Below, in pieces: positions 12,372 to 13,718 of a stretch of DNA of 64,000 nucleotides. This stretch comes from an uncultured Actinomycetota bacterium (lineage in GTDB: Bacteria; Actinomycetota; Actinomycetes; JAHEKZ01). The position numbers were made by a program, and so were the translations under genes. Numbering within the stretch: position 1 is the first letter of the stretch; each line of letters starts with the position of its first letter. The notes under the pieces are model-generated. The model ran no database searches. It was not told where the DNA came from and saw nothing but the letters and a program-made list of their open reading frames with translations. The stretch covers positions 1,472,001-1,536,000 of the forward strand of contig CAWHIJ010000003.1 of the NCBI GenBank assembly GCA_963829525.1, read 5' to 3'.

Positions 12372-13718
12372 TCATATCTGCACCGGCCGACCCGCGACCA
12401 TGAACACGGCGTCGTCGCTGAGCTCGGCGACAGCCGCGTTGAGTCGACCTTGAGTGTCGCGGAAGAGGCGGCCTGACTGCGTCGCCGGCACGACGCCCTG
12501 CCCCACCTCATTGCTGACGGCGACGACTTGTGCCTTCGTCATCTTCCACGCCTGCAGCAAGTGGTCGATCTGCTTGTCGACGACAGTGAGATCGCCGTCC
12601 CAGGCGCCAGCGTCGTCCATCACCTGCATTAGCCAGAGTGTCAGGCAATCGACGAGTAGGCGCTCGCCACGGTCCGCGTCCAGCAGCGCGGCCGCGACGT
12701 CTCCGGTTTCGATGGTCGTCCAGTGATCTGGTCGACGGGTGCGATGTTCGGCAACCCGGACGTCCCACTCGGGGTCGTCTGGACGGGGCGGTGCGGTGGC
12801 GACGTAGGTGACGTGTTCGGCCGCTGCGAACAAGGACTCGGCGAATCGCGACTTTCCAGACCTCGCGCCGCCGATCACCAACGTTCGATGAGGTACCGCG
12901 AGCCGCGTCGCTGTGGTGGTGCTGCCGGTGCGCAGGATGGCGCCGTCCGGAAGGACGCGTGCTCCCCAGGGCTCTAGGCGCTCACCTAGCCGAATCGGAT
13001 TGTGGTGCGACAGATGCACCGCGACGACGTCACTGGAGTCGTTGACGGCTCCAACGGCTCTGAGTCGACGAAGCTGGTGCGGGAACGTGGCGAGGTCGAG
13101 GTGCTGGGTACCGTGCTCGACAAAGTCTCCGAAGGTCTCTTCGAGGAGTAGCACGTCGAAGGCAGCATTGGTGACGGCCGCAACTGTCTCGTCGGAGAGG
13201 GGACCGGTGTCGGTGGCGTAAAGCAGCCGAGCGCCGTCTGCTGCTGTGACGTCGAAGAGGACCGATTCCCCGATGGTGGCATCGCCGTGCGTGGTGGCCA
13301 GCACGCGAACGGTGTAGCCGTCGCACTGCAGCGAGTCGCCCGCAGCCACCGGGTGCAGAGCAACGGGGTCGCTCGGCCCGATCCAGTCGCGCAGCTGATC
13401 GAGGACGCCCTCCGGTGCGTAGACGTCGAGCTGCTCACGCCTGCCAGCCCAGTGGCGGAAGAGCAGCGCCGCCGGGCCTAGGTGATCTGGGTGGGCGTGG
13501 GTGATGAGCAGTGTTCGAACGCCCGAGAGCTCCGCGCCATGTCGGGTCGCGGCCGCAGGTGCCTCAGGACCGCAGTCGATCAGCAGTCGGTCGTCGATCA
13601 GTGCGCTGGTCTGGCCCCGAAGCACCCCGGAGGTTCGTGCCCAGCCGCAGGAGGCACAGGTGCAGAAGGCGTTCGGCCACCCGTCGGCTGCACCCGTTCC
13701 CAGCAGCTGGATCTTCAC
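12372..13718 (-). CDS. cobU: PhnP-like MBL-fold hydrolase fused to adenosylcobinamide kinase/guanylyltransferase (CobU/CobP)
   Basis: N-half [44 protein letters not shown]-half [38 protein letters not shown] overlap with upstream gene. Confidence 0.92.

What the first reader, a model, noticed from the sequence alone, without database searches (positions are those of the whole stretch)
12372..13718. PhnP-like phosphodiesterase fused to CobU: candidate new cobamide-remodelling enzyme
Seen: an intact MBL metal set (HxHxDH plus downstream H, D, H) and the PhnP-type N-terminal GTG..G.P...CxCxxC zinc motif, in frame with a complete CobU. Known: PhnP hydrolyses a ribose cyclic phosphodiester; the cobamide lower ligand is attached through a ribose-3'-phosphodiester; CobU uses cobinamide or cobinamide-phosphate. 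Inference: the MBL domain cleaves the loop and passes the product to CobU. Alternative: it replaces the missing CobC phosphatase. I recall similarly extended CobU proteins in other actinomycetes but know of no function assigned to this domain.
Basis: partly seen in the sequence, partly recalled or inferred. Interest (0 to 1): 0.85.

Follow-up and report, generated by a model that had tools for sequence, protein, structure and literature searches.

The report
PhnP-like hydrolase fused to CobU
A vitamin-B12 salvage enzyme (CobU) carries an intact, uncharacterised metal-dependent phosphodiesterase domain that is found mainly in bacteria that import rather than make B12, which suggests that it cuts imported B12-like molecules so that they can be rebuilt.

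Summary
Window 12372-13718 (- strand) is one 448-aa gene: an N-terminal metallo-beta-lactamase-fold domain with every PhnP-type metal ligand and the CxCxxC zinc knuckle, fused in frame to a complete CobU.

The fusion is real. It occurs in thousands of proteins, in 76 of 172 CobU-bearing genomes of a class sample, and gap-free contigs of public runs bridge the junction.

The gene lies in a cobalamin-riboswitch operon: SCO2321-family, SCO2322-family, ECF transporter, MBL-CobU, CobT, CobS. The host genome shows no CobQ or CbiB, so it salvages corrinoids.

- Of 76 genomes with an intact domain, 54 lack CbiB.
- Of 96 CobU genomes with no or a decayed domain, 76 have CbiB.
- Two lineages that all carry CbiB keep only a catalytically dead relic.
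- No genome of 251 has a CobC equivalog, so "missing CobC" does not set the fusion apart.
- All solved relatives named here are diesterases or diphosphatases.

That would be a functional analogue of CbiR. A CobC replacement (about 0.17) and other loop-related diesterase roles remain open. Nothing has been shown biochemically. None of my ten searches of the held papers found a function assigned to this domain.

The parts
19475..19654 (-). Cobalamin riboswitch heading the operon; the only one found in the genome
   Evidence: Rfam RF00174, 32.9 bits against a gathering score of 31.5, model positions 1-189. It is the only match in the whole genome.
18243..19403 (-). SCO2321-family membrane protein, first gene of the operon
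   Evidence: NCBIfam NF053823, E 2e-61 (208 bits, below its cut-off of 300). Pfam gives only weak, non-significant alpha/alpha-toroid and Cobalamin_bind hits. Conserved upstream of MBL-CobU in most of the 14 full-order loci among 20.
17293..18238 (-). SCO2322-family secreted or anchored protein. The window has a 1-base frame error near 17396.
   Evidence: NF040672, 157 bits against a cut-off of 85. Frame analysis. One X1 contig leaves out 1 base at 17396.
16137..17296 (-). ECF transporter T component (CbiQ family). The window has a 1-base frame error at 16846 (G4 instead of G5).
   Evidence: Pfam CbiQ on the C-terminal frame. Orthologues read through in one frame. Contigs of X1, X2 and X5 all carry the extra base.
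14533..16140 (-). ECF transporter ATPase, two fused ABC domains
   Evidence: Pfam ABC_tran, two stretches, E 3.5e-57.
13715..14536 (-). ECF transporter S (substrate-specific) component
   Evidence: Pfam ECF_trnsprt, E 3.8e-10. Its stop overlaps the start of MBL-CobU.
12903..13718 (-). PhnP-type MBL-fold domain (residues 1-272) with the CxCxxC zinc knuckle and a full binuclear metal-ligand set
   Evidence: The AlphaFold2 model has mean pLDDT 90.2. Foldseek gives PhnP 3g1p TM 0.81 and 6b9v TM 0.79.
12372..12884 (-). CobU domain (residues 279-448, plus the stop codon): adenosylcobinamide kinase / adenosylcobinamide-phosphate guanylyltransferase
   Evidence: PF02283 positions 1-168 of 168, E 6e-54. 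NF004469 is above its cut-off. The P-loop and H325 are invariant. Foldseek matches CobU structures 1c9k and 1cbu.
11204..12340 (-). CobT (nicotinate-nucleotide:dimethylbenzimidazole phosphoribosyltransferase). The start is approximate.
   Evidence: TIGR03160, 422 bits against a cut-off of 319. Pfam DBI_PRT, E 9e-130. Homologues begin to align at residues 18-27 of the 12403 frame.
10422..11201 (-). CobS (adenosylcobinamide-GDP ribazoletransferase)
   Evidence: Pfam CobS, E 7e-47. The NCBIfam CobS models match but stay below their cut-offs.

Best explanation
The gene encodes a protein with a PhnP-family binuclear-metal phosphodiesterase domain in front of CobU. It belongs to a corrinoid salvage operon.

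Proposed mechanism:
1. An ECF transporter, with two SCO2321/SCO2322-family surface proteins, imports corrinoids when B12 is low. The riboswitch sets this control.
2. The MBL domain hydrolyses the phosphodiester of the nucleotide loop of a complete cobamide whose lower ligand does not suit the cell.
3. This yields cobinamide-phosphate (as CbiR does) or cobinamide.
4. The fused CobU domain converts that product to cobinamide-GDP.
5. CobT and CobS attach a new lower ligand.

What is shown: the domain architecture, the intact ligands, the operon, the salvager genotype and the phyletic pattern. What is inferred: the substrate, the bond that is cut and the hand-over to CobU.
For: 1. Chemistry of the family. 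The closest solved relative by sequence is PhnP. By fold the nearest are PhnP, PqqB, the FAD-photoproduct diphosphatase 6b9v, RNase Z, YhfI and Apyc1. Apart from PqqB, these are diesterases or diphosphatases by my recall of the literature. All PhnP-equivalent ligands, and the residue that aligns with H206 (which I recall as PhnP's general acid), are invariant in 40 of 40 fusions.

2. Fusion logic. The product of loop cleavage is a CobU substrate. CbiR makes cobinamide-phosphate from adenosylcobalamin (PMC7733943, passages read).

3. Operon. Riboswitch, SCO2321-family, SCO2322-family, EcfT, EcfAA', EcfS, MBL-CobU, CobT, CobS. The same order occurs in 14 of 20 loci from 17 families: 13 of 15 CbiB-less loci and 1 of 5 CbiB-bearing loci.

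4. The host is a cobamide-dependent salvager (97% complete genome).
- No CobQ and no CbiB were found.
- BluB is below its cut-off.
- There is a single riboswitch.
- Five B12-binding domains and a PduO adenosyltransferase are present.
- Without CbiB, the CbiZ route of remodelling cannot work.

5. Phyletic pattern in 251 genomes of the class.
- Intact domain: 22 with CbiB, 54 without.
- No or decayed domain: 76 with CbiB, 20 without.
- By family majority: intact-domain families are 5 with CbiB and 16 without; the others are 19 with and 3 without (3 ties dropped).

6. Decay where it is not needed. Genus g3 (11 of 11 genomes with CbiB, 5 with CbiZ) keeps a full-length relic without the Asp-His of HxHxDH, D170 or H206. 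Family f57 (11 of 11 with CbiB, 7 with CbiZ) keeps only the zinc knuckle and the C-terminal half in the 3 of 3 genomes I read.

7. CbiZ occurs in 1 of 76 intact-domain genomes and in 15 of 96 others.

8. The same domain is also fused to a CobT-like domain in 2 of the 16 proteins scanned from the representative list.
Against: - There is no biochemical or genetic evidence. No ligand modelling was possible.
- 22 CbiB-bearing genomes keep an intact domain, 9 of 10 in family f98 among them.
- 18 CbiB-less genomes with CobU have no match to the domain (2 more have only a weak match), and family f83 is split 6 to 4. The domain is therefore dispensable for salvage.
- The association is partly phylogenetic. 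Families are not independent, and I built no species tree.
- Many genomes are metagenome-assembled and 58-100% complete, so some CbiB absences may be false.
- CbiZ needs CbiB, which confounds the CbiZ contrast. Among CbiB-bearing genomes it is 1 of 22 against 15 of 76.
- Distant stand-alone relatives show no cobalamin context: 0 of 80 loci.
- Two stand-alone copies in family f100 are unlinked to cobU.
- A comparative-genomics label 'CblZ' is listed as an alternative to CobC. It may refer to this domain; I could not find its definition.
Confidence: 0.4

Rival explanations
1. The MBL domain is a non-orthologous replacement of CobC. It would remove the 5'-phosphate from adenosylcobalamin-5'-phosphate or alpha-ribazole-5'-phosphate, the last step of loop assembly.
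For: - No protein of this genome reaches the CobC equivalog cut-off; the best scores 125.9 against 162.9.
- The domain is fused or adjacent to all the other loop-assembly enzymes, and in some lineages to a CobT-like domain.
- Rodionov-type reconstructions list a 'CblZ' alternative to CobC (PMC6593275 and PMC8123684, passages read). I recall it as a predicted non-orthologous displacement of the phosphatase, but I could not confirm what protein it names.
Against: - 0 of 251 genomes of the class have a CobC equivalog, and 82 CobU-bearing genomes lack the domain altogether. The step must be covered by something else.
- Lineages whose sampled genomes all carry CbiB (g3, f57) have a dead relic.
- A CobC-like RNase H/acid-phosphatase fusion (NF005567, 480 bits) is present here.
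- A final-step enzyme should not be concentrated in CbiB-less genomes.
- The named solved relatives cleave diesters or diphosphates. I know of no monoesterase among them (for the list; the activities are recalled).
- No histidine-phosphatase gene takes the domain's place in 16 domain-less or relic cobU loci.
Confidence: 0.17
2. The domain is a loop-related diesterase or diphosphatase with another substrate. Examples are proofreading or recycling of adenosylcobinamide-GDP, or opening a cyclic phosphate of alpha-ribazole. That would be a housekeeping or damage-control role, like the PhnP-family FAD-photoproduct diphosphatase.
For: - 6b9v, a PhnP-family diphosphatase that acts on a damaged cofactor, is among the best structural matches at TM 0.79. 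I saw only its title and a figure legend.
- PhnP itself opens a ribose cyclic phosphate (recalled).
- The fusions to CobU or to a CobT-like domain fit any loop intermediate.
Against: - Such a role would be expected in genomes with CbiB as much as in genomes without it, which is not the pattern seen.
- Hydrolysing the product of CobU would be a futile cycle.
- There is no direct evidence.
Confidence: 0.15
3. In this protein the domain is mainly structural (oligomerisation or scaffold) or regulatory, without catalysis.
For: - Catalytically dead relics persist in g3 and f57, and the zinc knuckle is kept in 28 of 28 fused representatives.
- The full-length model has pTM 0.87, which suggests packed domains.
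Against: - All metal ligands are invariant in 40 of 40 close fusions and intact in about 23 of 28 diverse ones. That indicates selection for catalysis in this lineage.
Confidence: 0.06
4. The domain has a function unrelated to cobamides, such as an RNase-Z-like nuclease or a cyclic-nucleotide phosphodiesterase, and is fused by chance.
For: - Weak matches to RNase Z and Apyc1 models.
- Distant stand-alone relatives lie beside sugar transporters and other phosphoesterases, not cob genes.
Against: - The fusion is conserved across many families and is always with CobU or a CobT-like domain.
- Its distribution tracks the corrinoid genotype.
Confidence: 0.05

Closest known systems
PhnP (E. coli; PDB 3g1p/3p2u), phosphodiesterase of the C-P lyase pathway
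   Same: - MBL fold: Foldseek TM 0.81, 24% identity.
- Best hit among solved sequences, over the whole domain.
- Same HxHxDH, His, Asp, His ligands, a His that aligns with H206, and the CxCxxC plus His zinc site.
   Different: - Scores 51 bits against the PhnP equivalog cut-off of 272.
- No phn genes in the part of the window I annotated.
- Fused to CobU.
- The substrate is unknown.
CbiR (Akkermansia muciniphila), cobamide-remodelling phosphodiesterase
   Same: - The proposed role is the same: hydrolysis of the nucleotide-loop phosphodiester, giving cobinamide-phosphate for CobU, CobT and CobS.
- It is encoded among loop-assembly genes (PMC7733943, passages read).
   Different: - CbiR is an AP-endonuclease-2 TIM-barrel protein, so there is no homology.
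- CbiR is a separate protein, not a fusion.
- The activity proposed here is untested.
CbiZ, adenosylcobinamide / cobamide amidohydrolase
   Same: It starts the remodelling of cobamides.
   Different: - It cuts the amide bond and needs CbiB to rebuild the linker.
- The family is unrelated (PF01955).
- It was not found in this genome.
- In the class it occurs in 16 of 251 genomes, only 1 of them with an intact MBL domain.
CobC (and archaeal CobZ), alpha-ribazole-phosphate / cobalamin-5'-phosphate phosphatase
   Same: It is a loop-assembly accessory hydrolase and a candidate role for the domain.
   Different: - CobC is a histidine phosphatase and a monoesterase.
- No equivalog occurs in 251 genomes of the class.
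PhnP-family FAD-photoproduct diphosphatase (PDB 6b9v)
   Same: It belongs to the same subfamily by fold, TM 0.79. It is a PhnP-like enzyme recruited to cofactor metabolism (title and figure legend only).
   Different: It acts on flavin dinucleotide photoproducts and is not linked to cobamide genes.
Canonical short CobU/CobP (S. enterica; PDB 1cbu, 1c9k)
   Same: The C-terminal 170 residues are a full CobU: 34% identity to 1c9k, TM 0.84.
   Different: About 275 extra N-terminal residues form a separate catalytic domain.

Membership tests
CobU (PF02283 / NF004469) | Full-length match above the curated cut-off | tested here: met
   PF02283 positions 1-168 of 168, 182.5 bits against 27. NF004469 scores 169.9 against 161.
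CobU (PF02283 / NF004469) | P-loop and the conserved His of the guanylyl-enzyme intermediate (the role of the His is recalled) | tested here: met
   G283-S290 and H325 are invariant in 40 of 40 sequences.
CobU (PF02283 / NF004469) | Context with cobT and cobS | tested here: met
   CobT and CobS lie directly downstream.
Metallo-beta-lactamase superfamily | HxHxDH plus downstream His, Asp and His | tested here: met
   H74, H76, D78, H79, H144, D170 and H235 are invariant in 40 of 40 sequences.
Metallo-beta-lactamase superfamily | Alpha-beta/beta-alpha sandwich fold | tested here: met
   The model has pLDDT 90.2. The top Foldseek hits are all MBL-fold proteins.
PhnP (TIGR03307 equivalog) | Score above the equivalog cut-off | tested here: not met
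   51.3 bits against 272.25.
PhnP (TIGR03307 equivalog) | N-terminal Cys3 (+His) structural zinc site | tested here: met
   C19, C21, C24 and H238 are invariant and align with the PhnP motif. Metal binding itself was not tested.
PhnP (TIGR03307 equivalog) | Location in a phn (C-P lyase) operon | tested here: not met
   The neighbours are ECF transporter and cob genes. No phn family appears among the 23 ORFs scanned.
PhnP (TIGR03307 equivalog) | Hydrolysis of 5-phosphoribosyl 1,2-cyclic phosphate | not testable with these tools
   This needs an enzyme assay.
CbiR | AP endonuclease 2 / TIM-barrel fold | tested here: not met
   No such Pfam match, and the fold is MBL. The relation is by analogy only.
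CbiR | Hydrolysis of the cobamide phosphoribosyl bond | not testable with these tools
   This needs an enzyme assay.
CbiZ (PF01955) | Family match | tested here: not met
   No match in the protein or in the whole genome (G000 row).
CobC (TIGR03162, histidine phosphatase) | Histidine-phosphatase fold and an equivalog score | tested here: not met
   The domain is MBL, not His_Phos_1. The best His_Phos protein in the genome scores 125.9 against 162.9.
'CblZ' (comparative-genomics alternative to CobC) | Identity of the protein family behind the name | not testable with these tools
   The name appears in pathway tables only. The 2003 paper is not held and the supplements are closed.

The most novel reading that the evidence does not exclude
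The N-terminal domain of these long actinobacterial CobU proteins is a third, non-homologous class of cobamide-remodelling hydrolase, after CbiZ and CbiR. It would be a PhnP-type metallo-phosphodiesterase that opens the nucleotide loop and channels cobinamide or cobinamide-phosphate into its own CobU domain. Together with a dedicated ECF importer and SCO2321/SCO2322-family surface proteins, it would form a self-contained 'import, cut, rebuild' module. This module would explain how many small-genome actinobacteria without corrin synthesis use whatever cobamides their environment offers.
Probability: 0.4. Interest if true: 0.8.

Novelty: new variant of a known kind. Interest (0 to 1): 0.65.

Why it matters
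Most microbes that need cobamides do not make them, and the lower ligand decides which cobamide an enzyme can use. Only two remodelling enzymes are known to me, CbiZ and CbiR, and remodelling has been seen in organisms that have neither (PMC7733943).

An intact hydrolase domain sits on about 44% of CobU genes in a class-wide sample of actinobacteria (76 of 172). It is concentrated in corrinoid salvagers. If it is a remodelling enzyme, it would fill a large gap in predicting who can use which cobamide in soils, sediments and host-associated communities. It would also change genome-based calls of 'cobinamide salvager'.

The hypothesis can be tested directly with one recombinant protein and LC-MS.

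If the domain proves instead to be the missing last-step phosphatase, that would settle a long-standing hole in the actinobacterial B12 pathway.

Tried and rejected
- **Anti-correlation with CobC.** This test was uninformative. TIGR03162 is over its cut-off in 0 of 251 genomes. The sub-threshold hits (134-152 bits) lie in long frames, which I take to be RNase H/acid-phosphatase fusions. They occur with and without CobU.
- **Histidine-phosphatase genes near cobU.** tblastn with five His_Phos proteins of this genome found no hit in 36 cobU loci, 395 kb in total.
- **Context of distant stand-alone relatives.** 0 of 80 loci (Chloroflexota, Bacillota) have CobU, CobT or CobS within 6 kb. In 9 loci annotated by Pfam, the neighbours are sugar ABC transporters, Metallophos, Exo_endo_phos and GDPD proteins. 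This clade says nothing about cobamides.
- **ESM Atlas on the domain.** It returned only generic 'MBL fold / Apyc1-like' clusters.
- **Literature.** None of the ten searches found a function for the domain. Searches returned nothing on it; searches returned no paper; supplied only context ('CblZ', 6b9v, CbiR). 'CblZ' appears in two papers without a definition. Rodionov et al. 2003 (JBC) is not held. Supplements are closed, so a definition of CblZ there may bear on novelty.
- **Expression.** No RNA holder is listed for the stretch, so expression was not examined.
- **Model coordinates.** They are not available to scripts. I could not measure the pocket or the distance between the two active sites. 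I ran no complex or ligand prediction.
- **First alignment for the locus search.** The 17-sequence alignment was too divergent for the search for related loci. A 7-sequence subset worked.
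Full report
**1. The observation**

On the minus strand of the window, 12372-13718 is one open frame of 448 codons plus a stop. Its GTG start overlaps the stop of the upstream gene as GTGA. All 39 aligned homologues begin at the same residue.

Pfam finds a Lactamase_B_2 domain at residues 44-210 (E 2e-20) and a complete CobU domain at residues 279-448, covering profile positions 1-168 of 168 (E 6e-54). The NCBIfam CobU equivalog is passed at 169.9 against 161 bits. 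The PhnP equivalog is matched only weakly, at 51.3 against 272 bits.

- C19, C21, C24
- H74, H76, D78, H79
- H144, D170, H206, H235, H238

**2. Is the fusion real?**

- A word-indexed search found 4192 proteins at E <= 1e-3. Nearly all of the 120 listed are 430-485 aa and carry both Pfam domains. Their sources name them only as CobU.
- In a sample of 251 genomes of the window's class, 172 have CobU and 91 match the MBL domain at E <= 1e-8. 90 of those 91 also have CobU.
- In the pairs whose coordinates I compared, the two matches lie head to tail on one strand. The exceptions I saw are two genomes of family f100 (G420, G436), where a stand-alone copy lies far from cobU.
- Contigs of three public runs bridge the domain junction and the start codon with 0 gaps. 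X1 and X2 are possibly the source sample. X5 is from another study and is 95-99% alike.

**3. What the N-terminal domain is**

E. coli PhnP is the best hit among all solved sequences (E 4e-8, residues 3-259 against 5-246). The alignment puts every PhnP metal ligand, the CxCxxC motif and a His equivalent to H206 in register.

An AlphaFold2 model of the whole protein is confident, with mean pLDDT 90.2 and pTM 0.87. Foldseek ranks these nearest:
- PqqB and PhnP (target TM 0.81)
- 6b9v (0.79)
- RNase Z, YhfI and Apyc1 for the N-terminal half
- CobU structures for the C-terminal half

6b9v is a PhnP-family enzyme that cleaves FAD photoproducts. I saw only its title in a reference list and a figure legend. 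By my recall, all these relatives except PqqB hydrolyse phosphodiesters or diphosphates, and none is a phosphomonoesterase.

The domain is therefore a PhnP-type MBL but not a PhnP orthologue.

**4. Surroundings**

The gene is the sixth of eight genes packed on one strand behind a cobalamin riboswitch at 19475-19654 (32.9 bits against a gathering score of 31.5). This is the only cobalamin riboswitch found in the genome. The order is:
1. SCO2321-family membrane protein
2. SCO2322-family protein
3. EcfT
4. fused EcfA-A'
5. EcfS
6. MBL-CobU
7. CobT
8. CobS

I fetched 20 loci with an intact fusion from 17 families. The same order appears in 14 of them: 13 of the 15 from genomes without CbiB and 1 of the 5 from genomes with CbiB.

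**5. The host is a salvager**

The genome is 97% complete.
- It gives no match to CobQ or to CbiB.
- Its only BluB match is far below the cut-off.
- It has five B12-binding domains over the cut-off and a PduO-type adenosyltransferase.

It needs cobamides, cannot make the corrin ring or the aminopropanol linker, and cannot use the CbiZ route. Its only cobamide-related biosynthetic genes found are this operon and the adenosyltransferase.

**6. The 'missing CobC' argument**

Seven histidine-phosphatase matches exist in the genome. None reaches the CobC equivalog cut-off. The best (125.9 against 162.9 bits) is an RNase H/acid-phosphatase fusion (NF005567, 480 bits).

The equivalog is over its cut-off in 0 of 251 genomes of the class. 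That holds for the 82 CobU genomes with no MBL match and for the lineages in which the domain is dead. Whatever does the CobC step in this class is not specific to genomes with the fusion.

No histidine-phosphatase gene lies in any of the 36 cobU loci I held.

**7. Phyletic pattern**

I cross-tabulated.

| CobU-bearing genomes | n | with CbiB | without CbiB |
|---|---|---|---|
| Intact MBL match | 76 | 22 | 54 |
| Weak or partial match | 14 | 12 | 2 |
| No match | 82 | 64 | 18 |

I also took one vote per family by majority. Three ties among the 46 families were dropped.

| Families | mostly with CbiB | mostly without CbiB |
|---|---|---|
| Intact-domain families | 5 | 16 |
| Other families | 19 | 3 |

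Caveats:
- Families are still related to each other.
- Many genomes are incomplete metagenome bins.
- I copied the handles by hand.
- Five genomes flagged as unpublished (G205, G222, G227, G233, G240) are in these counts. Without them the first table reads 21/53 for the intact row and 73/20 for the other two rows combined.
- Results against the trend: family f98 keeps the intact domain in 9 of 10 genomes, all with CbiB. Family f83 has no CbiB at all and is split 6 with the domain to 4 without.

**8. Decay of the domain**

The 11 genomes of genus g3 are large and all have CbiB; 5 have CbiZ. They match only residues 2-83 and about 206-265 of the domain. Three of their genes, read in full, align with this protein end to end at 40% identity. 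They have lost the Asp-His of HxHxDH, D170 and H206, and keep the zinc knuckle.

In family f57 all 11 genomes have CbiB and 7 have CbiZ. The three genes I read keep only the zinc knuckle and the C-terminal half. Pfam no longer sees an MBL domain in these relics.

I then checked cluster representatives at 50% identity. Of 95 with a near-full match, the 28 fused ones have intact metal ligands in about 23, and 28 of 28 keep the three cysteines. The 52 short stand-alone forms are almost all intact.

The ligands are therefore intact in most fusions. They are degenerate in a minority, and the members of that minority that I traced to genomes (g3, f57) all carry CbiB.

**9. CbiZ**

CbiZ is found in 16 of 251 genomes. 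All 16 have CobU. One has an intact domain, 5 have the weak g3 type, and 10 have no match at E <= 1e-8 (two of these ten were seen to carry a relic). The contrast is 1 of 76 against 15 of 96.

It is confounded, because CbiZ needs CbiB. Among CbiB-bearing genomes the contrast is 1 of 22 against 15 of 76.

**10. Other relatives**

An exhaustive HMMER search found 2053 clusters at E <= 1e-3 and 93 at E <= 1e-30, both fused and stand-alone.

Distant stand-alone members (32-51% identity to their own query) occur in Chloroflexota and Bacillota. None of 80 loci has CobU, CobT or CobS within 6 kb. In 9 annotated loci they lie beside sugar transporters and other phosphoesterases. That fits a diesterase family but says nothing about cobamides.

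I scanned 16 proteins from the list with Pfam: 13 long ones and 3 stand-alone forms. Two of the long ones join the MBL domain to a full-length CobT-like domain. In the one I aligned (P0158), the GEGTG motif has lost its Glu. The catalytic role of that Glu is recalled.

In a phylum-wide sample of 201 genomes, strong matches were seen only in the window's class.

**11. Interpretation**

- Shown: a PhnP-type, ligand-complete MBL domain fused to a complete CobU; a riboswitch-controlled import and loop-assembly operon; a salvager host; concentration of the intact domain in CbiB-less lineages; and its decay in two lineages whose sampled genomes all carry CbiB.
- Inferred: that the substrate is the loop phosphodiester of imported cobamides, and that the product passes to CobU.

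The inference rests on three points: the chemistry of the family, the fit between the cleavage product and CobU's substrates (CbiR makes cobinamide-phosphate; PMC7733943), and the phyletic pattern. I give it about 0.4.

| Reading | Probability |
|---|---|
| Cobamide-loop phosphodiesterase (remodelling) | about 0.4 |
| CobC replacement | about 0.17 |
| Another loop-related diesterase or diphosphatase | about 0.15 |
| Structural or regulatory role only | about 0.06 |
| Function unrelated to cobamides | about 0.05 |
| Not covered by these | the rest |

**12. Novelty**

None of my ten searches of the held papers found a function for this domain.
- Searches returned nothing on it.
- Searches returned no paper.
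- supplied only context ('CblZ', 6b9v, CbiR).

Database names ignore the domain. A 'CblZ' alternative to CobC is listed in two papers without a definition. I recall it as a predicted non-orthologous phosphatase from Rodionov et al. 2003, which is not held. It may or may not be this domain, and supplements that could settle this are closed.

I therefore rate the finding as a new variant of a known kind: a CobU with an uncharacterised catalytic domain and a testable role.

**13. Side result**

The window has two single-base frame errors in the transporter part of the operon:
- at 16846, a run of four G instead of five, in EcfT;
- near 17396, in the SCO2322-family gene.

Contigs of X1, X2 and X5 carry the extra base at 16846. 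One X1 contig lacks a base at 17396. Both are best read as assembly errors, not pseudogenes. No such difference was reported inside MBL-CobU.

Noticed in passing
window 16846 and about 17396 (- strand genes EcfT and SCO2322-family): Two single-base frameshifts split EcfT into two frames and cut the C-terminal anchor off the SCO2322-family gene. Contigs of public runs X1, X2 and X5 carry an extra base at 16846, and one X1 contig lacks a base at 17396. These are probably consensus errors of the assembly, not pseudogenes.
   Followed up: yes
window 17293-19403 (-): SCO2321-family and SCO2322-family proteins head the riboswitch operon. They are conserved in front of the ECF transporter in most of the 14 full-order loci. 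The SCO2321-family protein gives weak, non-significant hits to alpha/alpha-toroid domains and to the eukaryotic cobalamin-binding protein (E 0.13). They might be a surface corrinoid-capture pair.
   Followed up: partly
loci L088-L090 (genus g3) and L123-L125 (family f57): CobU genes in these large, CbiB-bearing genomes carry catalytically dead relics of the MBL domain. The zinc knuckle is kept, and HxHxDH is lost or mutated.
   Followed up: yes
proteins P0158 and P0165: The same MBL domain, with intact ligands, is fused to a full-length CobT-like domain. In P0158, the one I aligned, the GEGTG motif has lost its Glu. This may be a non-catalytic module that binds the lower-ligand nucleotide.
   Followed up: partly
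loci L118, L119 (family f65): CobU-CobT fusions without any MBL domain.
   Followed up: partly
loci L008-L087: A sister clade of stand-alone PhnP-like MBL proteins in Chloroflexota and Bacillota. In the 9 loci annotated, they lie beside sugar ABC transporters, Metallophos, Exo_endo_phos and GDPD proteins. This looks like a phosphodiester-utilisation context.
   Followed up: partly
L001 1006-2100 (G000:C3, about 53 kb upstream of the window): An RNase H / acid-phosphatase fusion (NF005567, 480 bits). It is the best CobC-like protein of the genome but stays below the CobC cut-off.
   Followed up: partly
window 41619-41783 (+): A c-di-AMP riboswitch (RF00379, 66.6 bits).
   Followed up: no
loci L091 (G436) and L092 (G420): Stand-alone copies of the MBL domain with intact motifs lie far from cobU. 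One is next to the signal-recognition-particle gene and the other next to an old-yellow-enzyme-like gene; I identified both neighbours by eye from the translations.
   Followed up: partly
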